NCBI GenBank assembly: GCA_964452105.1
Contig: CAYVLI010000001.1
Location: 6,423-37,617, forward strand
DNA from: an uncultured Nitrospinota bacterium
Lineage (GTDB): Bacteria; JAUXIQ01
Direction: 5' to 3'
Length of the DNA stretch: 31,195 nucleotides
Part shown: piece after piece, positions 5,217 through 27,244 of the stretch
How the letters are laid out: every line of letters begins with the position of its first letter
Numbering within the stretch: the first letter of the stretch is position 1
Notes under the pieces: generated by a model
Database searches by the model: none
The model's input: only the letters and a program-made list of their open reading frames with translations
What the model was told of the DNA's origin: nothing
Program-made: the position numbers and the translations under genes

Positions 5217-5678
5217 ATGGATATAAACGAGATTAAAAACCTCATAGAATTTTTCGAGAAGAAAGATTTCGTCGAAGTCGAGTACGAGAATCAGGGCGTG
5301 CGTTTGAGGCTTCGCAGGGCGGAACCTGAAACCAATGTGATTCGTACGGTTACAGGCCCCGCCCCGCAGCAGGAGTCTTATGCTTCTCGCCCGCCTCAGG
5401 CTTCGATGGGCCCTGGAGAAATAATCGAGGAAGAAGGAGTTATTAAGATAGAATCGCCCATGGTGGGTACGTTTTATCGAGCGCCCAGTCCGGGCGCGGA
5501 CCCCTTTGTGGAGGAGGGCAAGATCATAGAGAAGGGACAGGTGCTGTGTATAATCGAGGCCATGAAGGTCATGAACGAAATAGAATCGGAAGTGCGAGGA
5601 AGGATTAAATCCGTACTGATTGAGAACGGTCAACCGGTCGGTTATGCTGAGCCTCTTTTCATAATTGAACCCCTCTGA
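5217..5678 (+). CDS. accB: Acetyl-CoA carboxylase biotin carboxyl carrier protein
   Basis: SPMVGTFYRAPSP, IIEAMKVMNEIE biotinylation motif, Pro/Ala-rich linker. Confidence 0.97.
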   Translation: MDINEIKNLIEFFEKKDFVEVEYENQGVRLRLRRAEPETNVIRTVTGPAPQQESYASRPPQASMGPGEIIEEEGVIKIESPMVGTFYRAPSPGADPFVEEGKIIEKGQVLCIIEAMKVMNEIESEVRGRIKSVLIENGQPVGYAEPLFIIEPL

Positions 5679-5681
5679 GCG

Positions 5682-7031
5682 ATGACCGCTTCAGAAACCC
5701 ACCGAATATTCAACAAGATTCTTATAGCCAACCGCGGCGAAATTGCCCTGCGTATCTTACGCGCCTGCAAGGAGATGGGCATCAAGACGGTTGCTATATA
5801 TTCCCTGCCTGATAAGGATGAACTGCACGTGCGTTTTGCGGATGAGGCCGTGTGTGTGGGCCCGGCGGAAAGCAGTTTGAGCTACCTTAATACCACCAAC
5901 ATAATCAGTGCGGCAGAGATAACCGATTGCGAAGCGGTGCATCCGGGCTACGGGTTCATGGCGGAGAATGCGGATTTCGCCGAAATCTGCGAATCTTGCA
6001 AGATAACTTTCATAGGCCCGCCGCCCGCCGTCATAAGGTCCATGGGTGACAAGACCAATGCAAGGCGGCTCATGGCGGGCGCCGGCGTGAGGGTATTGCC
6101 GGGGAGCCAGAGTTGCGTTGAGGATATGGACGGAGCGCTCAAAACGGCTGCGGAGATAGGGTTCCCCGTCATAATCAAAGCGGCTGGAGGCGGCGGAGGG
6201 AGGGGCATGAGGGTCTGCTATAATGAGCTGAGCCTTAAGAATAACCTGGCCACTGCGCAGTCGGAGGCTCAGGCCGCATTCGGCGACTCCAGGCTTTATG
6301 TGGAAAAGTACCTGTCCCGGGCCAAGCACGTGGAGTTTCAGATATTCGGGGACAGGTATGGCAATGTCATACATCTGGGTGAAAGGGACTGCACGGTTCA
6401 GCGGCGCCATCAGAAGCTCATCGAGGAGTCTCCCTCCCCGGCCCTGGATGACAAGCTGAGGGCGGAAATGGGGCGTGCGGCGGTCAAGGCGGCAAAGGCT
6501 ATCGGATATGTCAGCGCCGGGACCGTGGAGTTCTTATTGGATGAGAACAGAGATTTCTACTTTCTGGAGATGAACACACGAATACAGGTGGAGCATCCTG
6601 TCACGGAGATGGCGCTGGACCTGGATATGATAAGGGAACAGATACTGGTTACCTGCGGTGAAGAACTCTCCTTGACTCAGAGAGGGGTTAAGCCCCGGGG
6701 CCACAGCATGGAATGCCGCATATGCGCTGAAGACCCTGTGGACTTCACCCCTCAGCCTGGAAAGATAACGGCCCTTCATCTCCCTGGAGGGAACGGAGTG
6801 CGCGTGGACACAGCCTTGCATAATGGATGTTATGTACAGCCGTACTATGATTCGCTGATTGCCAAGATAATAGTCAAAGGACTCGACAGGCAGACCGCCA
6901 TACAGAAAATGGTCCGGGCTCTGGAGGAAACTTATATCGAGGGCATCAAGACTAACATACCCTATCTCATGGATACGCTTACGTATGGGGAGTTCATGAA
7001 AGGGAGCCATACCATCGAGGGGCCAGGTTGA
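5682..7031 (+). CDS. accC: Biotin carboxylase
   Basis: KILIANRGEIALR, HPGYGFMAEN, KAAGGGGGRGM, ERDCTVQRRHQKLIEE, EMNTRIQVEHPVTE, YYDSLIAK. Confidence 0.97.
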   Translation: MTASETHRIFNKILIANRGEIALRILRACKEMGIKTVAIYSLPDKDELHVRFADEAVCVGPAESSLSYLNTTNIISAAEITDCEAVHPGYGFMAENADFAEICESCKITFIGPPPAVIRSMGDKTNARRLMAGAGVRVLPGSQSCVEDMDGALKTAAEIGFPVIIKAAGGGGGRGMRVCYNELSLKNNLATAQSEAQAAFGDSRLYVEKYLSRAKHVEFQIFGDRYGNVIHLGERDCTVQRRHQKLIEESPSPALDDKLRAEMGRAAVKAAKAIGYVSAGTVEFLLDENRDFYFLEMNTRIQVEHPVTEMALDLDMIREQILVTCGEELSLTQRGVKPRGHSMECRICAEDPVDFTPQPGKITALHLPGGNGVRVDTALHNGCYVQPYYDSLIAKIIVKGLDRQTAIQKMVRALEETYIEGIKTNIPYLMDTLTYGEFMKGSHTIEGPG

Positions 7032-7394: not shown

Positions 7395-7421
7395 CCCCCT
7401 CATGTTGTAGGATGATTGGCT

Positions 7422-9098
7422 ATGGATGAAGTTCGTGGATACAATCTGGCGGCCGAAGCCGTGAAGAGGGAGGGCGTGGATACCGTTTTCTTTCTCATGG
7501 GCGGACCGATTACTCCTATCATAAGGGCCTGCATGGAGATGGGCATAAAGGCCGTGGATGTGCGTCATGAACAGGCTGCTGCCATGATGGCTCACGGCTG
7601 GAGCCGGGTCACGGGCAGGCCTGGTGTCTGCTTTACCTGTTCGGGGCCTGGCGCCACCAATGCCGTCACCGGGGCCGCAAACGCTTTCGTGGACGGGGCG
7701 CCGGTGGTCTTCATTGGTGGTTCGAGCCCGCTGGTGCGTTCCGGCAGCTATGCTTTTCAGGATATCGACCAGGTGGCAGTAATGCGACCGATTACAAAGT
7801 GGGCGGCGCAGGTTCAGGATACGGTCAGGATACCCTATTTCGTACGCGCCGCTTTCCGTAAGGCCATGAGCGGGAAGCCCGGGCCGGTTTACCTGGACCT
7901 GCCCTGGGACATAATATATGGCAAGGCGGTCAGGGAAGGGGTAGAGTTTCCGGTCGTGCCTGAGAGCTATTTCAGGCCGCAGGCGGATGGGGAATCGGTG
8001 AAATCGGCGGTTGAAGCGCTCAGGCAGGCTGAAAGACCTATCATAGTGGCTGGCAGCGGTGTGCTCTGGTCGGGGGCGGAGAAGGAGCTCGCCCGCCTGG
8101 TGGATGAAACGGGCTTACCTCTGTTTACGACTCCTCTGGCCAGAGGAATCATCCCTGAAGACCACGGCCGGTCTTTCATAGCTGCTCGTTCCATGGCTTT
8201 CAGTGAGGCTGACGCCGTTCTGGTAGTGGGAACCCGGTTCAATTACATTTTGGCTTTCGGGAGCCCGCCCAGGTTTAATCCCCGGGCCAGGATGATTCGC
8301 CTGGACATAGATGCTGAGGAGATGGGCCACAACCGAGCCGTGGATGTCCCTCTGGTGGGGGATGCCAAACAGGTTCTGAGCCAGCTTATAGAGGAGTCCA
8401 ACGGAGCCGTCCATCTCGACGATGATTCTCCCTGGATAACTGCGCTGCGCGAAAAGGATGCTACCGGGAGAGAGGAGCTGACGCCTCTTCTCAATTCCGA
8501 AAGTGTCCCCATACATCCTCTCAGGCTGTGTAAGGAGGTCAGGGATTTCATGGACCGGGACGCCACGCTTGTGGTTGACGGGCACGAGATACTCAACTAC
8601 GCTCGGCAGTCCATCCCGTCCTATCATCCGAGGCATCGGCTGAATACCGGGCCTTTCGGCTGCATAGGGGTGGGTCTGCCATTCGGGGTTGCCGCCAAGC
8701 TGGTTCGGCGGGACAAACAGGTGATAGTTCTAACCGGGGACGGCTCCTTCGGGTTGAACGGCTTCGAGCTGGATACGGCCATCCGCCATGGCCTTTCGAT
8801 TATGGTGGTCATCAGCAATAACGGGGGATGGACTGCGGGCGGTGAGGGGAGATGGGACATACCGGGCAGGGAACTCGGTTTCAGCAGATATGAAAAGATG
8901 GTGGAGGCCTTCGGGGGGCATGCGGAGCATGTTACCCATCCTGATGAAATCCGGCCTGCACTTGAGAGGGCGGCGTCTTCCGGGAAATTCGCCTGCGTAA
9001 ACGTTATCACCGACCAGGAGGCCAGGTCGGTAACGCAGCCGTTCTCCTCCTTTAAGGTAGTGGCGGGCAAAACAACAGACAGCAGCCAGACGGGTTGA
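7422..9098 (+). CDS. ThDP-dependent enzyme, acetolactate synthase-like superfamily, closest in motifs to 2-hydroxyacyl-CoA lyase/oxalyl-CoA decarboxylase
   Basis: Catalytic Glu in VRHEQAAA, GPGATN, ThDP motif GDGSFG...NN. GTRFNYILAFG, DGHEILNYAR and HRLNTGPFGCIGVG resemble HACL/OXC rather than AHAS. ATG 7422 follows AGGA; the track start at 7416 is TTG. Confidence 0.8.
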   Translation: MDEVRGYNLAAEAVKREGVDTVFFLMGGPITPIIRACMEMGIKAVDVRHEQAAAMMAHGWSRVTGRPGVCFTCSGPGATNAVTGAANAFVDGAPVVFIGGSSPLVRSGSYAFQDIDQVAVMRPITKWAAQVQDTVRIPYFVRAAFRKAMSGKPGPVYLDLPWDIIYGKAVREGVEFPVVPESYFRPQADGESVKSAVEALRQAERPIIVAGSGVLWSGAEKELARLVDETGLPLFTTPLARGIIPEDHGRSFIAARSMAFSEADAVLVVGTRFNYILAFGSPPRFNPRARMIRLDIDAEEMGHNRAVDVPLVGDAKQVLSQLIEESNGAVHLDDDSPWITALREKDATGREELTPLLNSESVPIHPLRLCKEVRDFMDRDATLVVDGHEILNYARQSIPSYHPRHRLNTGPFGCIGVGLPFGVAAKLVRRDKQVIVLTGDGSFGLNGFELDTAIRHGLSIMVVISNNGGWTAGGEGRWDIPGRELGFSRYEKMVEAFGGHAEHVTHPDEIRPALERAASSGKFACVNVITDQEARSVTQPFSSFKVVAGKTTDSSQTG

Positions 9099-9775
9099 TG
9101 TTAACATCTGTAATCATACCTGCTCTTAATGAAAAGAGTACGATCAATTCAACGATTGTAAACCTGATTGAATCGGCGTCGCTTAAGAACCTGGAGATAA
9201 TTGTCGTCGATGCAAGCCCGGACGATAATAAGATTGAGACGATCGACTCTGCCTGTGACGTAAAAGTAATAAAGTCCCGCAGAGGCCGGGCCAGGCAGAT
9301 GAACCTCGGCGCCGGAATCGCAAAGGGTGAGGCGCTTATATTTATTCATGCGGATACCATATTGCCTCATGGCTGGGATAAACTTGTAACCGGTGCGATA
9401 GAAAAGGGTTACGATGGAGGGGGTTTCCTGAAGCGTTATGATTCACCTTCTGCGCTGCGGCGTGTGAATGCATTCTACTCCAACATCAGGACCAGGGTTT
9501 TTGGTGATCTGCTGGGCGATAACTGTATTTTCGTTAAGAAGTTTGTTTTCCATGGTATAGGCGGATTCAAGGAAATAGAGATAATGGAGGACGTGGAGTT
9601 CAGCGGGGAGTTGAAGCGCTACAGGCGCAAGATATTTAGAGATAAAGTTATCACTTCTTCGAGGAGATTCGAAAGGATTGGAGACCTCAAGACTCTATGC
9701 ATATTTTTGCAGGTCAGGATGCTGCGCCTCTTCAAGGTGGACCCTCGAGTGATCGAAGCTCTCTATGATTGTTGA
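9098..9775 (+). CDS. Glycosyltransferase family 2, rSAM/selenodomain-associated transferase 2 (TIGR04283-like)
   Basis: SVIIPALNE, GRARQMNLGA, FIHADT, GDNCIFV, IMEDVEF, TSSRRF. The start ATG overlaps the upstream TGA (TGATG). Confidence 0.88.
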   Translation: MLTSVIIPALNEKSTINSTIVNLIESASLKNLEIIVVDASPDDNKIETIDSACDVKVIKSRRGRARQMNLGAGIAKGEALIFIHADTILPHGWDKLVTGAIEKGYDGGGFLKRYDSPSALRRVNAFYSNIRTRVFGDLLGDNCIFVKKFVFHGIGGFKEIEIMEDVEFSGELKRYRRKIFRDKVITSSRRFERIGDLKTLCIFLQVRMLRLFKVDPRVIEALYDC

Positions 9776-10398
9776 CACCGGGCAGGATGCCCGAAGTAAT
9801 ACAGATCCTCGACTTCGTCTATGTCTCGTTTTTCCTCCAGTGTGGACAGGTTTAACTTCATTTCCCGCGCCAGGGACATGGTGTCTTCAAAAACCGTCGA
9901 GCTTCCCCACTCTATGTTCCTGAACAGGTTGGTTTTTTTCTTCAAGCCTATCAGATAGTAGCCTCCGTCTTCAGCCGGCCCGATGACCCCATCCAATTTT
10001 TCGTCGTTTTCGAGCCCTCTGAAGGCGGCTTCTATAAAATCTTCGCTGATATCGGGGATATCGGATCCCACCAGGATGACATTGTTATAACTCTTCAGCC
10101 CGGTTTCAAAAGCGTTAAGCATCCTTTGGCCTAAATCTTCACCTCTCTGCTGCAAAATCTTTTCTTTGTTTATCAGTTCACGAAAATAGTTCTCGGCTCC
10201 GGCGACGTACAATTTTACGTCGTAACTTGTCTTCCTCACTGTGCTGCGGCTAGCAAGTGATTGGATGGTATTTCGAAGCAAATACTCATATATCGCTCTT
10301 GCCCCTGCCTCGCCTACCTTCTTTGCCAGCCTGCTTTTCACTTCCCTGGAGTTAGGATTCCTGGCAAATATTATCAACAGGTTGTTTCTCTTTTCCAA
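9763..10398 (-). CDS. rSAM/selenodomain-associated transferase 1 (TIGR04282/DUF2064-like)
   Basis: IIFARNP...VKSRLA, QRGEDLGQRM, LVGSDIP, IGPAEDGGYYLIGL, WGSSTVF, DIDEVEDL. TTG start after AGGGGG. Confidence 0.9.
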   Translation of the reverse strand: MEKRNNLLIIFARNPNSREVKSRLAKKVGEAGARAIYEYLLRNTIQSLASRSTVRKTSYDVKLYVAGAENYFRELINKEKILQQRGEDLGQRMLNAFETGLKSYNNVILVGSDIPDISEDFIEAAFRGLENDEKLDGVIGPAEDGGYYLIGLKKKTNLFRNIEWGSSTVFEDTMSLAREMKLNLSTLEEKRDIDEVEDLYYFGHPARCQQS

Positions 10399-11102
10399 TT
10401 TTCCCCCTTAACCTTTTTTATAATCTTCGGGAGGTATAACGAGAAGGCGAATAGGGCTACCGATAAGAATATTCTGTACGATATCAGTTGTCCCCAGTCG
10501 CCCGAAACCCAGACCTCTTTCAGCGTTCCGATGAGGAAGGTAAAGATAAAAGTTCCAACGGCGATGCCCAGGCCTGTCCCGGCGAAATAGTCCCAAAATC
10601 GCACTCTGGTTAGTCCCATGCCGTAGTCCATGGCGGTGAAGGGGAAATAGATCAGACGGAGGTAGAGCACCGTTGCGAAGCCGTTCCGCTCTATGGCGTC
10701 ATCGTATTTTTTCAGCCTGTTTCCTATTAGCGAGGCGGCGAAATCCCTTCCCAGGGTTCGGCCTATAAAGAAGGCGGCGCTTGCGCCTCCCATGGCGCCG
10801 ATGAACACGAAGAGGAATCCCCAGTAGGGACCGAAGATGGCTGCGCCGATGCCTGTGAGTATTGTCCCCGGGATAAACAGACATACGCCGAGGATATAGA
10901 TAACTATGTATGCGAGCGGTCCCCAGAATCCCATCGACTCCAGAAGGCCGCTCAATTTATCGATGGTGAAATAGCTTTTTAACTCCGAAAAGTAGAACAG
11001 GTAAACCGATAAGCCGATAATGGCCAAAAGCGCTGAAGCCTTTATCAAGATCTTCTTGCGATTATTTACAGGTTTTTCTACCACCACGTTCATATCTTTC
11101 AT
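10374..11102 (-). CDS. TVP38/TMEM64 (VTT/DedA-like) membrane protein
   Basis: Several TM helices, IPGTILTGIGAAIFG, GASAAFFIGR.LGR, LYLRLIYFPFTAMDYGMGLTRVRFWDYF.GT. Confidence 0.9.
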   Translation of the reverse strand: MKDMNVVVEKPVNNRKKILIKASALLAIIGLSVYLFYFSELKSYFTIDKLSGLLESMGFWGPLAYIVIYILGVCLFIPGTILTGIGAAIFGPYWGFLFVFIGAMGGASAAFFIGRTLGRDFAASLIGNRLKKYDDAIERNGFATVLYLRLIYFPFTAMDYGMGLTRVRFWDYFAGTGLGIAVGTFIFTFLIGTLKEVWVSGDWGQLISYRIFLSVALFAFSLYLPKIIKKVKGENWKRETTC

Positions 11103-11131
11103 TACTTCTCATTTTTCCCTTTTTGGCTGCT

Positions 11132-11165
11132 AAACCCGAACTCAGGTTTTGATGGCTCCTTCTCA
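11132..11165 (-). promoter_or_regulatory. Candidate bacterial SECIS element
   Basis: Minus-strand RNA: UGA-GAAGGAGCCAUCA-AAACCUG-AGUU-CGGGUUU. A 7-bp stem (one G-U pair) with GU in the loop starts 13 nt after the UGA, similar to the spacing of the E. coli fdhF SECIS. Confidence 0.6.
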
Positions 11166-12152
11166 TGTAAAACCCGTACCTGCGGCGCAGGCGTAGCAAT
11201 GGTCTGAAGTAATGATGTCGCTGCCGGGTTCCGGAGGGCCTGCCATATCTGCGATATGAGTTTTGCGGCCCCCCATGGGAAGTCCGGCGGCCAGATTAAA
11301 ATCGCAGTCGTAAAGGTATCCGTTCCAGTCCACCGAGAGGAGTGAACGACACATCAGCCCTTCGACATTCTGCGGATTGAAGTTTGAAGCGAGCATTTCC
11401 ATGTATGCCTCGAAGCCGCCTGAGCGCAGAAGCTGTCTCCTGAACCTCCCAAGGGGAGTCAGGCCGAACATGAAAAGGTTGTTAAATACTATTCCCCACT
11501 GCTTTTGCAGCAAGCTTCTGAACGCTTCTTCCACTTGTGATTCTGCGGCAGGCAGGTACGGGCCGGTGGGATTTGAAATTAGATTGAGTTCCAATCCCGT
11601 TCCCTCCTCTCCGTAACCCGCGGTGTTTAATTTTTTCAGCGCCGAAATGCTTTTTTGGAAAATGCCTTCCCCCCGCTGCGAGTCCGTTTCCAGCCGGTTT
11701 AAAGAAGGCAGTGAAGCGACGATGGCTACTCTGTACTTTAGGAACAGATGGAGAAGCCCTGACGGTCTGTCCTTTAGAATGGAAAGGTTGGAACGGACGG
11801 ATATCCTCTTGCTGCACGATGAGAGCCTCTCGATTAAGCCGGATAGCCCGGGGTGCAGTTCGGGGGCTCCGCCGGTGATGTCTATGGTTTGTAATCGGGC
11901 CCTTTTCGCAAAGTTCTCCACGGCATTTATTGTGTCTTCATCCATTAATTCCATTCTTTTGGGGCCGGCTTCCAGATGACAGTGCGCGCAGGCCTGGTTG
12001 CATAATCGACCCAGGTTGATTTGCAGGGTCTTCGTCTCCCCCTTCTTCAGTTCCAGGCCGTGTTCGGAGAGGCGCTGATGGAAAGATCGAACAACCCCCG
12101 ACTCCTCATCGAAGCAGAGCTGAACGCCTTCGGTCGTTGGTCTTGTATTCAT
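11142..12152 (-). CDS. arsS: ArsS-like radical SAM (seleno)protein (TIGR04167/DUF3641-type), probable Sec at the UGA 11163-11165
   Basis: CxxxCxxC in LCNQACAHCHLEAGP, DITGGAPE, LMCRSLLSVDWNGYLYDCDFN, HCYACAAGTGFT-UGA-EGAIKT*. The track stops at 11163. The read-through matches where homologues carry a terminal Cys or Sec before a GA motif. Confidence 0.85.
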
Positions 12153-12208
12153 TCCTTTTCTTCCATAGAAAGTTCATAGTTCAGGACCATATTTCTGCGC
12201 CTCCACAC

Positions 12209-13651
12209 TCAAGCTTCTCCTCTCAAACGGAAAAAGAGCCTGAGGAGTTTCTTCGTTCTGCCAGAGAATATTTTCGATGAGTAATAATTTCCGGCCACGC
12301 GCTTGTTTATCTCTCCGAGCGTGGGGTAGGGATGCACGCTCAGGGCCAGGGCAGAGAGCTTGACCTTCCCGCTCAGTATGGCCACCCATTCGTTGATCAG
12401 CTCACCCGCTCTCGGCCCCAGTATCTGGACGCCGATTGGTTTGCTTTTCCTATCGAGTATCATTTTTATCTTTCCTGTTATAGCGCCTTCCGTCAGGCTT
12501 CTGTCGTTGTCCTTGAACTCTTCCGTCCAGACGGAATATTCGATTCCCGAGGCCCTGGCTCTCTTTTCGTTCATCCCGATGCTTGCCAGTTCGGGATCGG
12601 TAAAAGTGCACCATGGAAGGAAGGTGTAATCGGTCTTTTTAGGCAGGTGGAAGATGGCGTTGCTTATGACGACGCCCCCTTCGTAGCCGGCAGCGTGAGT
12701 GAACAGGTGAGTTCCTGTTACATCGCCTGCGGCATAAATATGTTTTTGAGTCGTCTGCAACCTTCTGTTGACCTTTAGCCCTTTTTCATCGAATTCTACG
12801 CCGATGTCCTCGAGGCCAAGCTCGCCGATGTTTGATTCCCTGCCTATTGCCACGAGTAGTGTCTCTGCACGTAGTGAAAGAGTCTCTCCTTCACCGTTTT
12901 TCATGAAGACTTCTCTCTCGCTACCCAGGTCGTTAACACCGATAATGGAAGAGTCCAAATGGAATATTACGCCTTCCGACCTCAAGACTTGCATGACTTC
13001 GTCAGCCATGTCCCTATCTTCTTTGCTGAGGATTTGTGCACTTCTTTGCACGACGTGAATCTTAGAGCCGAGTCGGGAGAAAGCCTGAGCCATTTCCATG
13101 GCTATGGGACCTGCACCAAGCATGATCATGGATTCGGGCAGATGGTTGAGGGAAAAGAGATCTCTGTTTGTTATAAAAGCGGTTTTATCCAGGCCCTCTA
13201 TGGGGGGAATGTAGGGAGACGAACCCGTAGCTATCACCCATTTCCTGGCGGAGTGAGTTTTACCGTCTAAGTTTATGGAGCGCTCGTCTGAAAAGGTTGG
13301 CATACCGAATTCTACCTTTGCGCCCATGTCTCGAAATCTTTCGGCGGAATCGTGCGCTTGTATGGCGCTGATAACGTCTCTGATCCTTTCAGTCACTTTT
13401 TTAAAATCGGGCGGAGGCATCTCCGCAGGGAGAAGGCCGAATGTACCTACGTTTTTCGCCAGATGGTGAACGTGGGCTGTCTTGATGAGCGTCTTGCTCG
13501 GAACGCATCCGAAATGGAGGCAATCTCCTCCCAGTTCTTTTTCTTTTTCGATGAGTAGTGTTTTTGCGCCGAGTCGGGCTGCACCGGCTGCGACGGTAAG
13601 CCCTGCAGCCCCACCGCCGATTACGCCGATATCGAAATCATAATTTGCCAT
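12209..13651 (-). CDS. FAD-dependent pyridine nucleotide-disulfide oxidoreductase (mercuric reductase/dihydrolipoamide dehydrogenase-like, not MerA)
   Basis: GGGAAG FAD motif, redox pair GGDCLHFGCVPSK, GAGPIAME, IYAAGDV, HPYPT. No C-terminal Cys-Cys. ATG 13651 follows AGAGG; 13666 is an alternative start. Confidence 0.9.
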   Translation of the reverse strand: MANYDFDIGVIGGGAAGLTVAAGAARLGAKTLLIEKEKELGGDCLHFGCVPSKTLIKTAHVHHLAKNVGTFGLLPAEMPPPDFKKVTERIRDVISAIQAHDSAERFRDMGAKVEFGMPTFSDERSINLDGKTHSARKWVIATGSSPYIPPIEGLDKTAFITNRDLFSLNHLPESMIMLGAGPIAMEMAQAFSRLGSKIHVVQRSAQILSKEDRDMADEVMQVLRSEGVIFHLDSSIIGVNDLGSEREVFMKNGEGETLSLRAETLLVAIGRESNIGELGLEDIGVEFDEKGLKVNRRLQTTQKHIYAAGDVTGTHLFTHAAGYEGGVVISNAIFHLPKKTDYTFLPWCTFTDPELASIGMNEKRARASGIEYSVWTEEFKDNDRSLTEGAITGKIKMILDRKSKPIGVQILGPRAGELINEWVAILSGKVKLSALALSVHPYPTLGEINKRVAGNYYSSKIFSGRTKKLLRLFFRLRGEA

Positions 13652-13691
13652 AGGGGCCTCTATCATGCAGAAAATTTGTATAATTGCTTGT

Positions 13692-14462
13692 TTATTTTTC
13701 GTTCAGGGACCAATCGTAATCGTAGTAATCGATTTTAATTTTTCCCTTGTTACTTTCAAGGAAATTTTTGAGGTCACCTTCCGCATATATCAGGTAAAAA
13801 CCTATGATGTCGTTATCGAAGTCTTCTGAAAACCACTTGAATATCTCGTTTACGTATAGAGTATGGTACTCAATCCTGTAACGCTGCGGGTCGTTTATAA
13901 ACGTTCGCGTGGAGTCGTCCAGTTGCTGATTCAATATGTTTCCCTGATATGGTTCAGCGCGGAGAGGGGGACAACCTTTCGAAGCGCAGTTTACAGCGAA
14001 ATGCGCCCGCGGGTCTTTAAAACGGGGTCGGATAATTCCATGCTCGATGTGGTCGAGGGTGAGTCTATCACCGTCGATGCTGCAAATCTTCTTCTTCCAG
14101 GGGCTCCTGAATATATTCCCCAAATCTTTTATTGATTTAACACCAGGGTAGGCGCTCAGTATCAGCTTAATGGTACAGGCATTATATGCGTTCAGGTAGA
14201 AGGCGAGCTGTTCCTCTCTGGGGAGGTTATTTGTATCCGTTTCTTTCAGTATTTTGAGATATCTATCGAGTTTGGATTCTTCGTTTTTAAACCCTTTGTA
14301 ATCCACTATTCCTTTATCATTATATTTGATTAACAGCCTGGCGTAAAGGCTGTGGTCCACGGTATCGGTGTCTGTGCTTGCCTCAGCCTGAATTGAGAGT
14401 CCAACAAAAAAGATTAACGATAAGATTATGTAGAAACAGAATGTATTTGTTTTTGTGTTCAT
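13692..14462 (-). CDS. DUF547 domain-containing exported protein
   Basis: Signal-peptide-like N-terminus, VDYKG, LAFYLNAYNA, TLDHIEHGIIR, DPRAHFAVNCASKGCPPL, IFKWF.EDF, YDYDWSLN. GAGG RBS. Confidence 0.9.
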   Translation of the reverse strand: MNTKTNTFCFYIILSLIFFVGLSIQAEASTDTDTVDHSLYARLLIKYNDKGIVDYKGFKNEESKLDRYLKILKETDTNNLPREEQLAFYLNAYNACTIKLILSAYPGVKSIKDLGNIFRSPWKKKICSIDGDRLTLDHIEHGIIRPRFKDPRAHFAVNCASKGCPPLRAEPYQGNILNQQLDDSTRTFINDPQRYRIEYHTLYVNEIFKWFSEDFDNDIIGFYLIYAEGDLKNFLESNKGKIKIDYYDYDWSLNEK

Positions 14463-18562: not shown

Positions 18563-20971
18563 GTGGTGAAGAAGCTTTGGAAAAAACTGGATGAGGGAGC
18601 GCTGCTTTTCGACGGCGCCATGGGAAGCATGCTTCAGCACCGCTTTCAACGGCCCGGGGTATGTCTTGAGGAGTTGAACCTTCTGGAGCCGGAAATGGTG
18701 CGAAGCGTCCATGTGGCTTATGTCGATGAGGGCGTTGATGTAATAGAGACGAATACGCTGGGTGCCAACGCAGTAAAACTGAGTGAACACGGCCTCGGCC
18801 ACAAGGTTGAGGAGATAAACAGGCAGGCTGTCAAACTGGCCAGGGAGGCGGCATCGGGCAGATGTCTGGTGGCTCTCTCGGTGGGCTCGACGGGGAAATT
18901 TCTCGAGCCTATCGGTTCCATGACCTTCGATGAAATGCGCGAGGTTTTCCGGGCGCAGATATCTGCCGCAGCACGGGAAGGGGTGGATTTGGTGGTGATC
19001 GAGACCATATCCGACCTGAAAGAGATGAGGGCCGCGGTGGTGGCGGCCAAAGAGGCGGTTTCGGTTCCCATTATGGCTACCATGACCTTCCAGGAAGACG
19101 GCCGCACCCTCCTGGGTACCAGCCCGGAAGCGGCTGCCGTATGCCTCGAATCCATGGGGGTGAGCATAATAGGCGCGAATTGCGGCACCGGGCCTGAAAC
19201 CATGGTTCAGGTTTTGAGGGAGCTCAAGCGCTCCACAGGAGCTAAGGTAGCGGCACAGCCCAATGCAGGCATGCCCAGGCTGGAGGCCGGCAGGACCGTT
19301 TTCCCCCTCACTCCTGAGGAGATGGCTGATTATTACGTCCGCTTAATCAAGGAGGGGGCGGATGTCATCGGCGGTTGCTGCGGTACGACGCCGCAGCACA
19401 TGAGGGCGATGATCAAAGCCGTGAGGGATATCAAGCCTGCTTCGGCTGCGCCTCGTCTGGAGAGTACGGTGTTATCGAGCCGCAGCAGGGTGGTGAGGAT
19501 AGGAAACGGTTGCTTTCCGGTTGTAATAGGAGAGAGGATAAACCCCACGGGGCGCAAGAAGCTCTCCGGGGAACTGATGGAGGGAAAGCTGGACGCCGTT
19601 TTGAAAGAAGCCAGGGAACAGGTTGAAGCCGGAGCGGACCTCCTCGATGTTAACGTAGGAGCGCCCGGGGCCGACGAGGTGGGCCTCATGAGGGGGGCTT
19701 CGCTGGCTGTACAGCGCCAGGTGGCTTCTCCTCTGGTGCTGGACTCTCCCGACCCGCAGGCTCTGGAGGCTGGACTCAAGGCGGCGGATGGCAAGGTTCT
19801 CATCAACTCCGTGAACGGTGAACGGGAGAAGATAGAGGCGATAGTCCCTCTTGCTGTGAAATACGGGGCGGCGGTAATAGGATTGACCCTGGACGAGAAG
19901 GGCATATCCGAACGGGCTGCAGAGCGGCTGAAGGTAGCCCGTACTATCCTCGATGCCTCGATGGAGCTGGGACTTTCCAAAATGGACTTGATAATCGACT
20001 GTCTTGCCCTCTCCGTCAGCACGGATCAGGAGTTAGCCCTGGAGACCCTCCGCGCTATCGAATCCATAAAGAAGGAGTTGGGGCTTCCCATTTCACTTGG
20101 AGTCAGTAACGTCTCCTTCGGCCTGCCGGCGAGGGGGCTGATCAATTCAGCCTTCCTGGCCATGGCCCTGGGCTGCGGCCTTGACTGCGCCATTATGAAC
20201 CCCAAGGATTCGCGGATGATGGAGACCTTACAGGCCTCGGCTGTGCTCATGGGGAGGGATAAGAAGGCGCTGAGGTTCATAGACTCATATGGCAGGAGCG
20301 CTCCCGAGGTAAGAGCCGAAAAAGTTGAAGAACCTGTCGGCCCGGCCCGAAAGCTGTTTCGAGCAATAGTGGAGGGTCATAAAGAGAACATCCTCTCTCT
20401 TATGGAGGGGGTGTTTGAAGAGGGTGTTCCCCCCATGGAGCTGAGTGATGCCATACTCATCCCGGCGCTGGAAGAGGTGGGCCGGAAGTTTGAGAGCAAG
20501 GACTTTTTCCTACCGCAGGTAATGTTGTCCGCCGAAGCTGCCAAGATAGCTTTCGTCCGCATCAGGGAAGTATTAAAGGGGCATGAGACTGTATCCAGGG
20601 GGAAAGTCATAATGGCCACTGTAATGGGGGACATTCACGATATCGGCAAAAATATCGTCTCCATGCTTCTGGAAAATCATGGTTTTGAGGTGTTGAACCT
20701 GGGGATAAACGTCCCGGCGGAAAAAATTGCTGAGGCGGCGGTAGATAACAGTGTGGATGCCATCGGCTTGAGCGCCCTGATGACCACTACCATGCTGGAA
20801 ATGGGTAAAACGGTGAAGTATCTCAAGCAGAGGGAGATAAACTGCCCTATAATAGTGGGCGGGGCCGCGGTGACGCCTGAGTTCGCTGCCGAGATAGGGG
20901 CGGATGCCTATGGCAGGGACGCAGTGGATGCGGTGAACATAGCGAAGAAACTCATCCCTGAGAGGAAATGA
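18563..20971 (+). CDS. metH: Cobalamin-dependent methionine synthase, three-module form (Hcy-binding, pterin-binding, cap/B12-binding) without the C-terminal reactivation domain
   Basis: DGAMGSML, Zn ligands GANCG and GGCCG, IGERINPTG, LGVSNVSFG, B12 motif GDIHDIGKN, SALMTTT. The 802-aa protein ends right after the B12 domain. Confidence 0.9.
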   Translation: MVKKLWKKLDEGALLFDGAMGSMLQHRFQRPGVCLEELNLLEPEMVRSVHVAYVDEGVDVIETNTLGANAVKLSEHGLGHKVEEINRQAVKLAREAASGRCLVALSVGSTGKFLEPIGSMTFDEMREVFRAQISAAAREGVDLVVIETISDLKEMRAAVVAAKEAVSVPIMATMTFQEDGRTLLGTSPEAAAVCLESMGVSIIGANCGTGPETMVQVLRELKRSTGAKVAAQPNAGMPRLEAGRTVFPLTPEEMADYYVRLIKEGADVIGGCCGTTPQHMRAMIKAVRDIKPASAAPRLESTVLSSRSRVVRIGNGCFPVVIGERINPTGRKKLSGELMEGKLDAVLKEAREQVEAGADLLDVNVGAPGADEVGLMRGASLAVQRQVASPLVLDSPDPQALEAGLKAADGKVLINSVNGEREKIEAIVPLAVKYGAAVIGLTLDEKGISERAAERLKVARTILDASMELGLSKMDLIIDCLALSVSTDQELALETLRAIESIKKELGLPISLGVSNVSFGLPARGLINSAFLAMALGCGLDCAIMNPKDSRMMETLQASAVLMGRDKKALRFIDSYGRSAPEVRAEKVEEPVGPARKLFRAIVEGHKENILSLMEGVFEEGVPPMELSDAILIPALEEVGRKFESKDFFLPQVMLSAEAAKIAFVRIREVLKGHETVSRGKVIMATVMGDIHDIGKNIVSMLLENHGFEVLNLGINVPAEKIAEAAVDNSVDAIGLSALMTTTMLEMGKTVKYLKQREINCPIIVGGAAVTPEFAAEIGADAYGRDAVDAVNIAKKLIPERK

Positions 20972-22014
20972 TAGAACAAGTATCGAGTATCATGGATACG
21001 CTGGCTGCTGCAGTGATCCTGGCCGCCGGGAAGGGGGTCAGGATGGTTTCCGAGAGGGCCAAGGTGCTTCACCCCCTGTGCGGAGAGCCGATGTTGGGCC
21101 ATGTTCTTCGGGCGGTGGCCGAATGCGGCCCGGAGAGGACGCTGGTGGTGGTAGGCCATCAGGCTGAAGAAGTAAAGGCGGCTTTCGCCGATGAGAAAGT
21201 GGAATTCGTCCTGCAGGAAGAGCAGCGAGGCACCGGCCACGCTCTGATGCAAACCGAGAAATACCTGGGAGGTTGCGGCGGGGAAATCCTGGTGGTTCCC
21301 GGCGATACTCCTCTTCTTAAAGCGCAGACGCTTCTTACTCTTCTGAAAACGCACAGGGAAACCGGAGCAACGGTCTCCTTGCTGACGGCTCGATTGCCGG
21401 ACGCTGCGGGCTACGGCAGGGTTATTCGAGAGAGGGACGGCTCGGTGGCGAGGATAGTGGAGGACAGGGATGCGACTGTCGAAGAAGCCGCAGTCAACGA
21501 AATCAATGTAGGCGCATACTGTTTCGCAGCGTCCTTTCCCTTCGAGGCCCTGCTGAAGGTAAGGGATGATAACGCGCAAGGGGAGTTGTATCTCACGGAT
21601 GTGGTGGAGGTGGCGGTAGGTAATAGAGAAAAGGTAGCGGCGCTCGAGGCGGATGCTGATGAAGTGATGGGTGTGAACAGCAGGGTGGAGTTGGCGAGGG
21701 CGGAAAAGATAATGCGGAGCGAAATAAACCGATGCTGGATGCTTCGCGGTGTCACGATGGTGAATCCGGCTGCCACTTATGTCGATAGCGGCGCGAAAAT
21801 CGGGGTGGATTCCGTCATGCACCCCGGCTGCCATATACTGGGAGAATCAGTCATCGGTGAGCGGTGCACGGTCATGCCTGGAGCCATAGTAATAGACAGT
21901 CGGATCGGTCGGGAAGCCCGCCTGGGGCCGTATTGTATTCTGGAGCGCATCTCTGTCCCTGATGGGGGTGAGGTAGCGCCGTTTGAGATTAAGAGAGGAA
22001 CCGACCGGCCATAA
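20968..22014 (+). CDS. glmU: GlmU, C-terminally truncated (uridyltransferase domain, linker and first LbH coils only)
   Basis: ILAAGKGVRM...AKVLH, QRGTGHA, GDTPLL, GYGRVIR, IVEDRD, EINVG, NAQGELYLTD, GVNSR. Ends at VAPFEIKRGTDRP* (equivalent to GPFARLRP) after 348 aa. ATGA overlap with metH. Confidence 0.9.
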   Translation: MIEQVSSIMDTLAAAVILAAGKGVRMVSERAKVLHPLCGEPMLGHVLRAVAECGPERTLVVVGHQAEEVKAAFADEKVEFVLQEEQRGTGHALMQTEKYLGGCGGEILVVPGDTPLLKAQTLLTLLKTHRETGATVSLLTARLPDAAGYGRVIRERDGSVARIVEDRDATVEEAAVNEINVGAYCFAASFPFEALLKVRDDNAQGELYLTDVVEVAVGNREKVAALEADADEVMGVNSRVELARAEKIMRSEINRCWMLRGVTMVNPAATYVDSGAKIGVDSVMHPGCHILGESVIGERCTVMPGAIVIDSRIGREARLGPYCILERISVPDGGEVAPFEIKRGTDRP

Positions 22015-22044
22015 TCCAGCTTCTCTAACAAGGGTGGGGGAAAA

Positions 22045-23247
22045 ATGAAAGCTGTCATTCTAACGGGTGGAAGAGCCACAAAGCTGGAGCCTTTCACTGC
22101 CACCAGACCTGCGGTGATGATTAACATCAGCGGCAGGTATCTTCTCGAGAATATCATATCTTTGCTTAGAGCGGCGGGGATCGTGGATATCGTGCTTGTG
22201 GTGGGTTATAAGCGGGAAAAGATAATTGATTACTTTAAAGGCGGTGGCGATCAGGGCGTTAACATAACCTATGCCGTCCAGGATGAGCCGGCGGGCATAG
22301 GTGATGCAGTCCTGAAGGCCAGGGATAAAGTTCTGCGTGGTGAATACTTCATGCTGGTGTATGGGGATACGCTCACCTGCTCTAATATATACAACGGCGC
22401 CATCAATTCTTTCAACTCCTTCAAGCTTCCCATAGCGTCCGTCTGTCTCACTCCCGCCACCCAGCGGTACGGCAACATATTTATGGATGGGGAGATGAAC
22501 ATCCACCGAATAATAGAGAAACCGCATGGGGAAGAGCTGGGGAATTATGTCCTGGCCGGAGCGTTCATTCTGCCCAGCGATTTTTTTAATCTGCTGCAAG
22601 AGAGCAATTGCGTCATGGAGGAAGCGCTGGATGCGGTTATCGGTGAGCAGGGGTTGAAAGCTTCCATCTGGGAAGAGGACTGGGTGGATATAGGACATCC
22701 CTGGGACATCCTGCGAGGCAACAAAATGATAATGGATTCCTGGGAGTATGCCTCTATTTCCAAGGAGGCCCGGCTCATGGGGGACGTGAGCATACAGGGC
22801 CCAGTGGTCATAGCGAACGATGTCACCATAGAGAAGGGTACACTGTTAAAGGGCCCCTGCTACGTTGGGCCGGGCTCGTTCGTGGGGCATAACGCCCTGG
22901 TCAGGGAGTACACTTCCATCGGGGCCAATTCGGTGGTGGGATTCGGGGTGGAGCTTAAAAATTGCGTGCTTTTCGGCGGGTCCAAGATTGGCCGGCTTTC
23001 TTTCGTTGGCGACAGCGTAATAGGCCAGGGTGTGTATATCGGTTCTGGAACCATGACCATCAACGGCTATCTGGACGGCGGCACCGTACGGGTTAAAAGC
23101 AATGGAATGGAAATGGACACCGGCTTGCACAAAATCGGGTCGTTTGTCGGCGATAATGTCATGGTTGGATCGGGCAACACTCTTGCTGCCGGATGTATTA
23201 TACCTTCCGGGGAACGGATTCCTCATCATTTTACATTCCCGAAATAA
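22045..23247 (+). CDS. Archaeal-type bifunctional GlmU-like nucleotidyltransferase/LbH protein with degenerate active sites (candidate pseudoenzyme)
   Basis: Full architecture (VYGD, YG, IIEKP, WVDIGHPWDIL, GPVVI..GPCYVG, ELKNC, VGDSVIG, DTG..KIGSFVGD), but GGRATKL..RPA replaces G.GTR...PK and RLSFVGDS replaces HLSYVGDS. Confidence 0.85.
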   Translation: MKAVILTGGRATKLEPFTATRPAVMINISGRYLLENIISLLRAAGIVDIVLVVGYKREKIIDYFKGGGDQGVNITYAVQDEPAGIGDAVLKARDKVLRGEYFMLVYGDTLTCSNIYNGAINSFNSFKLPIASVCLTPATQRYGNIFMDGEMNIHRIIEKPHGEELGNYVLAGAFILPSDFFNLLQESNCVMEEALDAVIGEQGLKASIWEEDWVDIGHPWDILRGNKMIMDSWEYASISKEARLMGDVSIQGPVVIANDVTIEKGTLLKGPCYVGPGSFVGHNALVREYTSIGANSVVGFGVELKNCVLFGGSKIGRLSFVGDSVIGQGVYIGSGTMTINGYLDGGTVRVKSNGMEMDTGLHKIGSFVGDNVMVGSGNTLAAGCIIPSGERIPHHFTFPK

Positions 23248-23261
23248 GGAGAGATTTTAAA

Positions 23262-25079: not shown

Positions 25080-25195
25080 GTATTTTTTATACTGCATGGT
25101 CTGTCTAATCAGGTTTGCTCATTACGGTTGGACAAAATGGGGGTACAGGGCGCTGTGCCCCTGAATACTGATGGCGACAGGCTGAGATTACCTGT

Positions 25196-27214: not shown

Positions 27215-27244
27215 GTGAATCTTTTAACAGCTTTGGAGCCTGAT

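What the first reader, a model, noticed from the sequence alone, without database searches (positions are those of the whole stretch)
11132..11200. Hidden selenocysteine at the C-terminus of the ArsS-like radical SAM protein
Seen in sequence (minus strand): HCYACAAGTGFT-TGA-GAA GGA GCC ATC AAA ACC-TGA. The first UGA falls where this family has its last Cys, followed by a GA motif. A hairpin AAACCUG-AGUU-CGGGUUU (11132-11149) with GU in the loop starts 13 nt downstream and contains the second stop. Established: the TIGR04167/ArsS family has Sec replacing a C-terminal Cys in some bacteria, and bacterial SECIS elements sit just 3' of the UGA. The ORF track truncates this gene. It predicts selA/selB/selC/selD elsewhere in the genome.
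Basis: partly seen in the sequence, partly recalled or inferred. Interest (0 to 1): 0.7.

Follow-up and report, generated by a model that had tools for sequence, protein, structure and literature searches.

The report
Selenocysteine codon in ArsS gene
The apparent stop codon that ends this radical SAM enzyme gene is almost certainly read as selenocysteine, which adds seven residues to the protein, but this feature is already known for the family and is written into its database name.

Summary
On the minus strand the ORF ends ...HCYACAAGTGFT-TGA (11165-11163). It is followed in frame by GAA GGA GCC ATC AAA ACC and a second TGA (11144-11142). A 7-bp hairpin with loop AGUU lies at 11149-11132.

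With Cys in place of the UGA, the protein matches NCBIfam TIGR04167, "arsenosugar biosynthesis radical SAM (seleno)protein ArsS", end to end (369 bits, cutoff 300). Of the 120 nearest database homologues, 119 stop at exactly ...GF[T/S]. In 160 related loci the codon is TGA in 73 and TGC/TGT in 76.

After the TGA the frame stays coding (Gly-Gly-Ala/Ser-Ile, with third-position wobble). A hairpin sits at a fixed distance from the UGA in Sec-type genes. It covaries (5 of 7 pairs compensatory, 0 of 500 shuffles as good) and is largely absent from Cys-type genes. UGA is the normal stop in this window (14 of 26 genes). The TGA is present in independent assemblies and in a diverged sister strain.

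Not shown: Sec machinery (none in the window, and the rest of the genome is not available), selenium incorporation and enzyme activity.

The family has been listed as a predicted selenoprotein ("GxxU") since 2005, so this is a correct rediscovery of an ordinary, known feature that ORF callers routinely truncate.

The parts
11142..12152 (-). Full arsS-like gene read through the Sec codon: 336 aa plus stop, radical SAM domain plus DUF3641
   Evidence: TIGR04167 at 369 bits (cutoff 300), covering residues 35-334 against model positions 2-303 of 303. Pfam Radical_SAM and DUF3641.
11979..12002 (-). CNQACAHC, the CxxxCxxC motif of the radical SAM [4Fe-4S] cluster (C51, C55, C58)
   Evidence: Sequence. 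C51 and C58 are invariant and C55 nearly invariant (90% or more) in alignment A1.
11187..11198 (-). C319-x-x-C322 of the C-terminal Cys-rich motif CYAC-AAG-TGFT-U
   Evidence: Both Cys are invariant in A1 and A6.
11163..11165 (-). In-frame UGA, the predicted Sec330 codon (motif G-F-T-U)
   Evidence: TGA in 73 related loci and TGC/TGT in 76 at the same codon. No variant at this codon in contigs of runs X1 and X2, the two runs of the four laid whose contigs cover it.
11145..11162 (-). Six sense codons after the Sec codon (E-G-A-I-K-T)
   Evidence: The tail is 6 aa in 51 of 72 Sec-type genes. Codon positions 1 and 2 are conserved and position 3 is free. Cys-type genes have the same tail, C-G-G-A/S-I/L...
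11142..11144 (-). True stop codon (UGA), at the stem/loop junction of the hairpin
   Evidence: The true stop is UGA in 49 of 66 Sec-type genes.
11132..11149 (-). Predicted bacterial SECIS hairpin: 7-bp stem, loop AGUU
   Evidence: Folding. Model R1 scores 45.6 bits at 11128-11165. Covariation across 70 distinct sequences. Enriched in Sec-type over Cys-type genes.
10374..11102 (-). Downstream DedA/VTT-domain membrane protein gene, a recurring partner
   Evidence: Pfam VTT_dom. Found next to ArsS in 17 Sec-type and 8 Cys-type loci.
9763..10398 (-). TIGR04282 (DUF2064) 'arsenosugar biosynthesis glycosyltransferase'
   Evidence: 181.6 bits, cutoff 134. Recurs next to ArsS.
9095..9775 (+). TIGR04283 GT2 'arsenosugar biosynthesis glycosyltransferase'
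   Evidence: 194.4 bits, cutoff 182. Recurs next to ArsS.
12209..13666 (-). Upstream FAD-dependent pyridine nucleotide-disulphide oxidoreductase, a recurring partner
   Evidence: below the equivalog cutoffs. Found next to ArsS in 12 Sec-type and 7 Cys-type loci, at 60-71% identity in eight of the Sec-type loci and 33-51% in the other four.
13692..14462 (-). DUF547 protein, an occasional partner

Best explanation
The gene at 11142-12152 (minus strand) encodes a 336-residue radical SAM enzyme of the ArsS/TIGR04167 family. Its codon 330 (UGA, 11165-11163) is recoded as selenocysteine.

How the recoding would work (the established bacterial mechanism, inferred here):
- When the ribosome reaches this UGA, the hairpin 13 nt downstream (11149-11132, loop AGUU) acts as a bacterial SECIS.
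- It recruits SelB-GTP carrying Sec-tRNA(Sec), and Sec is inserted.
- Translation then runs six more codons (E-G-A-I-K-T). The ribosome melts the hairpin and stops at the second UGA, which lies inside it.

What the selenol would do (inferred):
- Sec takes the place of the last conserved Cys of the C-terminal Cys-rich DUF3641 domain (C-x-x-C-x-A-G-x-G-F-T-U).
- It sits on a short, probably flexible tail.
- By family assignment the enzyme adds the 5'-deoxyadenosyl radical of SAM to dimethylarsenite, giving 5'-deoxy-5'-dimethylarsinoyl-adenosine.
- The selenol most likely serves where the Cys thiol serves in other lineages, either as a ligand or carrier of the As(III) substrate or of an auxiliary metal site.

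Shown here: the sequence features, the Cys/Sec correspondence, the coding conservation of the tail, and the conservation, covariation and Sec-specificity of the hairpin.

Inferred: actual Sec insertion, the presence of selABCD, the arsenic chemistry and the role of the selenol.
For: Family assignment:
- TIGR04167 '(seleno)protein ArsS' at 369 bits against a cutoff of 300. The match runs to the last model position only if the tail after the UGA is included.
- DUF3641 matched 1-134 of 134.

Truncation and the Cys/Sec pair:
- 119 of the 120 closest database proteins end at ...GF[T/S] (118 GFT, one GFS). One continues GFTCGGAIDN.
- Related DNA loci: 73 TGA against 76 TGC/TGT at this codon.
- Every Sec-type locus with an organism title (12 of 12) comes from a Desulfobacterota or 'delta proteobacterium' MAG. 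Cys-type loci come from Geobacter, Acidobacteriota, Bacteroidota, Gammaproteobacteria, Nitrospirota and others.

The tail is translated:
- Codons after the UGA show three-base periodicity. Entropy at codons +1, +2 and +4 is 0-0.6 bits at positions 1 and 2 and 1.7-1.8 bits at position 3.

The hairpin:
- A stem of 5 bp or more occurs in 67 of 72 Sec-type genes, 30 of 74 Cys-type genes and 35% of shuffles. The loop starts at +23 in 40 of 72 and within one base of that in 60 of 72.
- Covariance model R1 hits the ArsS 3' end in Sec-type loci that were not used to build it. It has no significant hit at the Cys codon of Cys-type loci.
- 87% of cells are paired, 5 of 7 pairs carry compensatory changes (69 cells), and 0 of 500 shuffles reach this. 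Slid registers give 27-51% paired.
- It fits the published bSECIS model: loop 3-9 nt, stem 4-16 bp, G in the first two loop positions, 16-37 nt spacing (PMC13188914). The window has loop 4, stem 7, AGUU and 20 nt.

Other explanations excluded:
- UGA ends 14 of 26 genes in the window, so this is not a UGA-sense genetic code.
- The TGA is unchanged in contigs from a microbial-mat run and a hydrothermal-vent run. It is also unchanged in a diverged sister strain (L165, 85% aa identity), against which dN/dS = 0.30.

Context and prior knowledge:
- Neighbours TIGR04282 and TIGR04283 pass their cutoffs and recur beside ArsS.
- ArsS chemistry is described in PMC13598754 and bioRxiv 10.64898/2026.04.29.721666.
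Against: - No selA, selB, selC or selD, and no tRNA of any kind, lies in the 31-kb window. The rest of the genome is not available.
- The organism is from a poorly sampled lineage. AccC is only about 60% identical to named taxa, so Sec use cannot be inferred from taxonomy.
- The hairpin alone folds at -6.2 kcal/mol. It reaches -7.2 to -7.7 with flanking sequence, at or just short of the -7.5 kcal/mol criterion.
- The 71-nt region folds no better than shuffles (z = -0.10).
- No Rfam family matches.
- The residue after Sec is Glu here and Gly in 65 of 72 relatives.
- The reviews list this family among the predicted, not the experimentally verified, selenoproteins.
- No arsM or other arsenic gene is in the window, so the arsenosugar role rests on HMM equivalog assignment only.
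Confidence: 0.86

Rival explanations
1. The first UGA is a true stop. The protein is 329 aa and lacks the last Cys, and the hairpin is an ordinary 3'-end or intergenic RNA structure (a terminator or a stabiliser) ahead of dedA.
For: UGA is the commonest stop in the window. Gene callers make this call everywhere. The hairpin alone is not significant.
Against: - The six codons after the UGA are conserved as protein with synonymous wobble, and they match the tail of Cys-type enzymes.
- The hairpin position is fixed relative to the UGA, and the hairpin is depleted in Cys-type genes.
- No terminator-like site is scored and there is no U-run.
- A stop at exactly the Cys codon in 73 diverged genes is not expected from chance truncation.
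Confidence: 0.05
2. The gene is a relic. It was acquired, or descended, from a Sec-using lineage, but this host has no working Sec system (or a SelB that does not fit the hairpin). The UGA therefore terminates and the product is truncated, crippled or Cys-less.
For: - The arsS cluster looks like an insertion. It is absent at the same place in the nearest relative found and has a lower G+C content than its surroundings.
- ArsS, DedA and the FAD oxidoreductase resemble Desulfobacterota genes (55-79% identity in most Sec-type loci, 31-51% in some). For DedA and the FAD enzyme this is often higher than the about 60% that the housekeeping AccC shares with any named taxon.
- No sel genes are in the window.
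Against: - The UGA, the tail frame and the hairpin are all retained in two strains that differ at 15% of residues, with dN/dS = 0.30.
- Without Sec decoding, a UGA-to-UGY change would be a single step back to a full-length enzyme, yet it is not seen in any contig laid.
Confidence: 0.07
3. The UGA is decoded as something other than Sec, for example Trp, Cys or Gly through a reassigned code or a suppressor tRNA.
For: Lineages with UGA as a sense codon exist. Sec-tRNA can carry Cys when selenium is scarce (general knowledge).
Against: 14 of 26 genes in the window end in UGA, and their read-through extensions are short and unconserved. The position is a Cys/Sec pair with a SECIS-like element, which is the hallmark of Sec.
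Confidence: 0.02

Closest known systems
Sec-type members of TIGR04167, 'radical SAM domain protein' / ArsS (example AAR34688.1, Geobacter sulfurreducens; predicted selenoprotein family, motif GxxU)
   Same: - Same HMM family, above the equivalog cutoff.
- Same G-F-T-U position near the C-terminus.
- Same short tail (6 aa in 51 of 72 genes).
- Same small hairpin about 13-16 nt after the UGA that spans the true stop.
- Same partner genes TIGR04282 and TIGR04283.
   Different: - At most 61% identical to any full-length relative found. One 86%-identical partial relative exists.
- Glu instead of Gly after Sec.
- The host lineage is not recognisably Desulfobacterota.
- The cluster appears to be inserted after accC.
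Cys-type ArsS, the DDMAA synthase of cyanobacteria and other bacteria that was characterised biochemically
   Same: Radical SAM core CxxxCxxC plus DUF3641. The C-terminal C-x-x-C-x-A-G-x-G-S-S-C-G-G motif aligns residue for residue.
   Different: - Cys (TGC/TGT) where the window has UGA, and no hairpin at that place.
- Motif GSSC rather than GFTU.
- About 40-45% identity.
- Activity has been shown only for Cys forms.
E. coli fdhF / fdnG SECIS, the reference bacterial Sec insertion element
   Same: A stem-loop immediately 3' of the UGA, with G/U in a small apical loop at a fixed distance. Presumed to bind SelB (and general knowledge).
   Different: - Here the hairpin is shorter (7 bp, 4-nt loop).
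- It has no bulged U.
- It lies across the real stop codon and in the intergenic spacer, because Sec is only 7 codons from the end.
- No Rfam model matches it.
Animal thioredoxin reductase C-terminal Gly-Cys-Sec-Gly tail
   Same: Sec lies a few residues from the C-terminus on a tail predicted to be flexible (pLDDT below 50 in the model of the Cys homologue). This is compatible with a swinging-arm role.
   Different: A eukaryotic enzyme with a 3'-UTR SECIS and an adjacent Cys-Sec redox pair. It has an unrelated fold and chemistry. This is an analogy only.
Sec-containing arsenite methyltransferase (ArsM) forms listed in prokaryotic selenoproteome tables
   Same: Another arsenic-handling enzyme in which a Cys is replaced by Sec in some anaerobes.
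   Different: An unrelated fold (a methyltransferase). No arsM is present in this window.

Membership tests
TIGR04167 / ArsS radical SAM (seleno)protein | Whole-protein HMM score above the curated equivalog cutoff | tested here: met
   369 bits against a cutoff of 300. Model positions 2-303 of 303 are matched by residues 35-334.
TIGR04167 / ArsS radical SAM (seleno)protein | Radical SAM CxxxCxxC cluster motif | tested here: met
   C51-N-Q-A-C55-A-H-C58. C51 and C58 are invariant and C55 nearly invariant in the alignments. Pfam PF04055 at 38.2 bits.
TIGR04167 / ArsS radical SAM (seleno)protein | C-terminal DUF3641 domain with conserved Cys residues and a terminal Cys/Sec | tested here: met
   PF12345 at 155.8 bits, matched 1-134 of 134. 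C268, C283, C319 and C322 are invariant. The UGA aligns with Cys in 76 loci.
TIGR04167 / ArsS radical SAM (seleno)protein | Neighbourhood with TIGR04282 and TIGR04283 transferases | tested here: met
   Both lie within 1.5 kb and score above their cutoffs. The association recurs in other loci.
TIGR04167 / ArsS radical SAM (seleno)protein | Adenosylation of dimethylarsenite to DDMAA | not testable with these tools
   Known for Cys-type ArsS only. No arsM was found in the window.
Bacterial selenoprotein gene (Sec-UGA plus bSECIS) | In-frame UGA aligned with Cys in homologues | tested here: met
   73 TGA, 51 TGC and 25 TGT at the same codon.
Bacterial selenoprotein gene (Sec-UGA plus bSECIS) | Reading frame conserved beyond the UGA | tested here: met
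   Gly-Gly-Ala/Ser-Ile with third-position wobble. The tail is identical in kind to that of Cys-type genes.
Bacterial selenoprotein gene (Sec-UGA plus bSECIS) | bSECIS geometry: apical loop 3-9 nt, upper stem 4-16 bp, G in the first two loop positions, 16-37 nt from the UGA to the loop | tested here: met
   Loop AGUU (4 nt), stem 7 bp, G at loop position 2 followed by U, and 20 nt between the UGA and the loop. Criteria are from PMC13188914.
Bacterial selenoprotein gene (Sec-UGA plus bSECIS) | bSECIS minimum free energy of -7.5 kcal/mol or lower | tested here: inconclusive
   -6.2 kcal/mol for the hairpin alone, -7.2 for 28 nt, -7.4 for 41 nt and -7.7 for 48 nt. The value depends on the flanks and on the parameter set.
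Bacterial selenoprotein gene (Sec-UGA plus bSECIS) | Structure conserved with compensatory changes among orthologues | tested here: met
   87% of cells paired, 5 of 7 pairs with changes on both sides, 0 of 500 shuffles as good, and slid controls at 27-51%. The alignment was fitted to the model, which favours the structure somewhat.
Bacterial selenoprotein gene (Sec-UGA plus bSECIS) | selA, selB, selC and selD in the same genome | not testable with these tools
   None is in the window.
Bacterial selenoprotein gene (Sec-UGA plus bSECIS) | Selenium found in the protein | not testable with these tools
   This needs an experiment. The reviews list this family among the predicted, not the experimentally verified, selenoproteins.

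The most novel reading that the evidence does not exclude
The C-terminal selenol is not a passive Cys substitute. It would be a swinging-arm carrier that binds dimethylarsenite through an As-Se bond on a flexible tail and delivers it to the radical SAM site. Its presence on an apparently acquired gene island, in a lineage outside the Desulfobacterota, would mean that the whole Sec-dependent arsenic-modifying cassette moves between phyla that share a compatible SelB. A side aspect is that the true stop codon is built into the SECIS stem in most members. This could couple Sec insertion, termination and translation of the downstream dedA.
Probability: 0.15. Interest if true: 0.5.

Novelty: already known. 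Interest (0 to 1): 0.2.

Why it matters
For annotation, the gene should be 336 aa (11142-12152, with a translation exception for Sec at 11163-11165), not 329 aa. The truncated call removes a conserved catalytic or ligand residue. The same error affects almost all database copies of the closest relatives (119 of the 120 examined).

For biology, it marks the organism as a probable selenocysteine user. It also adds one more diverged member, from a microbial-mat or vent lineage, to a selenoprotein family tied to organoarsenic metabolism.

It does not open a new question. The Sec form of this family has been predicted since 2005 and is built into NCBI's naming rule. What remains open for the whole family is experimental proof of Sec insertion and the role of the terminal Cys/Sec.

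Tried and rejected
- Rfam scan of 10900-11400 at E up to 10. There was no SECIS family match, only chance hits on the other strand.
- Single-sequence folding significance. It was not significant (z = -0.10), so the case rests on comparison with relatives.
- MAFFT alignment of the 72 downstream regions (A2). It put the 3' arms out of register because loop lengths differ. I replaced it with a covariance model built from the 22 sequences with a 4-nt loop.
- Terminator and promoter scan. Nothing was found at the hairpin.
- Search for Sec machinery or further selenoprotein genes in the window. Pfam on all 26 genes, the tRNA scan and a read-through check of every UGA-terminated gene gave nothing. 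The long in-frame extensions are simply the next gene or unconserved sequence.
- Taxonomic placement through AccC. The best named relatives are only about 60% identical (Omnitrophota, Caldithrix), so no inference about the Sec trait could be drawn.
- PDB sequence search. No solved structure covers DUF3641.
- AlphaFold model of the Cys-type homologue P0079. The fold is good (pLDDT 84.5), but the tail is at low confidence and only one row of the alignment covers it. Foldseek shows only a general likeness to twitch/SPASM radical SAM enzymes (TM about 0.5).
I rejected it as a signal. It reflects the Gly/Glu codon.

Full report
**1. What is in the sequence**

Read on the minus strand, the 329-codon ORF 11163..12152 ends ...D-H-C-Y-A-C-A-A-G-T-G-F-T followed by TGA at 11165-11163. 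The same frame continues GAA GGA GCC ATC AAA ACC (E-G-A-I-K-T) to a second TGA at 11144-11142.

The 18 nt at 11149-11132 form AAACCUG / AGUU / CGGGUUU, a perfect 7-bp stem with a 4-nt loop. It starts 13 nt after the first UGA, and the second UGA lies at its stem/loop junction. The only slip is trivial: the His codon begins at 11201.

On its own the hairpin is not statistically remarkable. The 71-nt region folds no better than shuffles (z = -0.10). The hairpin alone gives -6.2 kcal/mol. Stems of 7 bp or more turn up in about 5% of shuffled controls.

**2. What the gene is**

I replaced the UGA with Cys and included the tail. The 336-residue protein then matches NCBIfam TIGR04167, named "arsenosugar biosynthesis radical SAM (seleno)protein ArsS", at 369 bits (curated cutoff 300). 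The match covers model positions 2-303 of 303 with residues 35-334, so the model expects the residues that lie beyond the UGA. Pfam finds Radical_SAM and a complete DUF3641. The CxxxCxxC motif is C51-N-Q-A-C55-A-H-C58.

The neighbours are:
- a TIGR04283 GT2 transferase (9095-9775, +) and a TIGR04282 DUF2064 transferase (9763-10398, -), both above their cutoffs;
- a DedA/VTT membrane protein (10374-11102, -);
- an FAD-dependent disulphide oxidoreductase (12209-13666, -);
- a DUF547 protein (13692-14462, -).

The same partners recur next to ArsS genes of both types in other organisms.

**3. The UGA is a Cys/Sec position**

Of the 120 closest proteins in the large protein collection, 119 end at exactly ...GF[T/S] (118 GFT, one GFS). 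The single exception runs on as GFTCGGAIDN. I fetched 160 related loci from genomes and metagenomes and read the DNA. The codon after G-F/S-T/S is TGA in 73, TGC in 51 and TGT in 25.

All 12 Sec-type loci that carry an organism title are from Desulfobacterota or "delta proteobacterium" MAGs. Cys-type loci are from Geobacter, Acidobacteriota, Bacteroidota, Gammaproteobacteria, Nitrospirota, Planctomycetota and others.

Behind the TGA the frame reads G-G-A/S-I-x-T/A/S and then a stop, the same tail as behind the Cys codon of Cys-type genes. Codon positions 1 and 2 are nearly fixed while position 3 is free. Entropy at codons +1, +2 and +4 is 0-0.6 bits against 1.7-1.8 bits. This is the signature of translated sequence under purifying selection. 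The tail is six residues in 51 of 72 Sec-type genes.

**4. The hairpin is a conserved element specific to Sec-type genes**

A perfect stem of 5 bp or more, starting 9-24 nt after the codon, is present in:
- 67 of 72 Sec-type genes;
- 30 of 74 Cys-type genes;
- 35% of shuffles.

For stems of 7 bp or more the figures are 35 of 72, 12 of 74 and 5%. The first loop base is at +23 from the U of the UGA in 40 of 72 genes and within one base of that in 60 of 72. [quoted passage not shown]

I built a covariance model from the 22 sequences with a 4-nt loop. It finds the element at the ArsS 3' end of the other Sec-type loci, including L006 and L012, which my motif scan had missed. It gives no significant hit at the Cys codon of Cys-type loci.

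On the resulting alignment (70 distinct sequences), 87% of cells are paired, 5 of 7 pairs show changes on both sides (69 cells) and no shuffle out of 500 reaches these values. Sliding the 3' arm drops pairing to 27-51%. The alignment is fitted to the model, which favours the structure somewhat. The outer three pairs nevertheless switch freely among A-U, G-C, C-G and U-A.

I compared the window's hairpin with the published bacterial SECIS model: loop 3-9 nt, stem 4-16 bp, G in the first two loop positions, 16-37 nt spacing, and MFE of -7.5 kcal/mol or lower (PMC13188914). It meets the three geometric criteria (loop 4, stem 7, AGUU, 20 nt). It is borderline on energy, at -6.2 to -7.7 kcal/mol depending on how much flank is folded. 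Rfam has no matching family, and the hairpin does not look like a terminator.

**5. Alternatives**

- Different genetic code. UGA ends 14 of the 26 genes in the window, so the organism does not read UGA as a sense codon in general.
- Assembly error. The TGA is not an error. Contigs from a microbial-mat run and from a hydrothermal-vent run carry it unchanged. A diverged sister strain (L165, 85% amino-acid identity, also seen as a minor contig in run X1) keeps the TGA and the hairpin, while the next codon is GGA instead of GAA and the true stop has become CGA.
- Decaying gene. Between the two strains dN/dS is 0.30, so the gene is under purifying selection.
- Relic in a host without a working Sec system. 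This cannot be excluded from the window alone, because there are no sel genes and no tRNA in the 31 kb. It is made unlikely by the retention of the UGA, the tail and the hairpin.

**6. How it most likely works**

Inferred from the established bacterial mechanism: SelB with Sec-tRNA(Sec) binds the hairpin while the UGA is in the A site. The 13-nt spacer keeps the stem just outside the ribosome. Sec is inserted, and the ribosome then unwinds the hairpin, reads six codons and terminates at the UGA within it.

Enzyme function follows from family assignment. ArsS adds the 5'-deoxyadenosyl radical to dimethylarsenite to give DDMAA (PMC13598754; bioRxiv 10.64898/2026.04.29.721666).

No solved structure covers DUF3641. 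An AlphaFold model of the Cys-type homologue P0079 is confident overall (pLDDT 84.5), but the last seven residues are below 50. This is compatible with a flexible tail, with the caveat that only one alignment row covers that tail. Its nearest solved folds are twitch/SPASM-type radical SAM enzymes such as BlsE, SkfB, EpeE, DesII and MoaA (TM about 0.5).

The selenol therefore probably acts where the Cys thiol acts, as a ligand or carrier of As(III) or of an auxiliary metal site. Which of these it is remains unknown.

**7. Comparison with what is known, and novelty**

"Radical SAM domain protein, TIGR04167" is listed among predicted prokaryotic selenoproteins with the motif GxxU, credited to the 2005 bSECISearch study (PMC9312934 and PMC13188914; also counted in PMC1976440). 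NCBI's family name carries "(seleno)protein".

The window's gene is an ordinary, if diverged, member. It is at most 61% identical to full-length relatives and has Glu instead of Gly after Sec. So the finding is a correct rediscovery of a known feature. Its practical value is a corrected gene model and a hint that the organism uses Sec.

**8. Verdict**

- Observation: confirmed.
- Interpretation: supported.
- Novelty: already known.
- Interest: low (0.2).
- Confidence that the UGA is decoded as Sec in the native organism: about 0.86.

Noticed in passing
window 7416-14462; L163: The whole block is missing at the same place in the nearest relative found (GCA_030620925.1, AccC 78% identical). The block holds a TPP enzyme, GT2, DUF2064, DedA, ArsS, an FAD oxidoreductase and DUF547. 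The relative has the same pilO-aroB-TPR-aroQ-pepQ-efp-accB-accC order, but then a PBP-like gene and a histidine kinase. G+C is 0.41-0.51 across 9-15 kb, against 0.52-0.60 on either side. This suggests an acquired island.
   Followed up: partly
L165 871-945; minor contig of run X1 over window 11020-11191: In a sister strain the Sec-UGA is kept, but the true stop is CGA. The tail would then run 22 residues (U-GGAIKT-RVRASQPKRGKIKSEE) to just before the dedA start. One stem pair changes from U-G to C-G and another from A-U to A-C.
   Followed up: partly
window 11142-11144 and Sec-type loci L001-L152: In 49 of 66 Sec-type genes the real stop codon is itself a UGA placed at the stem/loop junction of the SECIS (CCUGA|GUU). 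The ribosome must melt the SECIS to terminate. Whether this placement has a function is unknown.
   Followed up: no
window 11160-11162: The residue after Sec is Glu (GAA) here. It is Gly in 65 of 72 Sec-type relatives and in the sister strain.
   Followed up: partly
whole window (AccC at 5682-7031): The organism is from a poorly sampled lineage. AccC has three relatives at 78-80% identity, one of them (P0122) traced to NCBI assemblies GCA_030620925.1 and GCA_044240325.1, and then drops to about 60% (Omnitrophota, Caldithrix and others). The DNA is found in microbial-mat and hydrothermal-vent metagenomes.
   Followed up: partly
window 20968-28090: A run of sugar-nucleotide genes on the + strand: two NTP-transferase/left-handed beta-helix proteins, a GlmS-like amidotransferase with SIS domains, a long PGM/PMM-like protein (672 aa) and a hexapeptide-repeat protein.
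   Followed up: no
window 9763-9775 and 10374-10398: The genes are tightly packed. The convergent GT2 and DUF2064 genes overlap by 13 nt at their 3' ends, and DUF2064 overlaps the end of dedA by 25 nt.
   Followed up: no
window 5676-5684: The accB stop (TGA at 5676-5678) is followed in the same frame by the accC start (5682), so a read-through check flags it. It is simply two adjacent genes, not a Sec candidate.
   Followed up: yes
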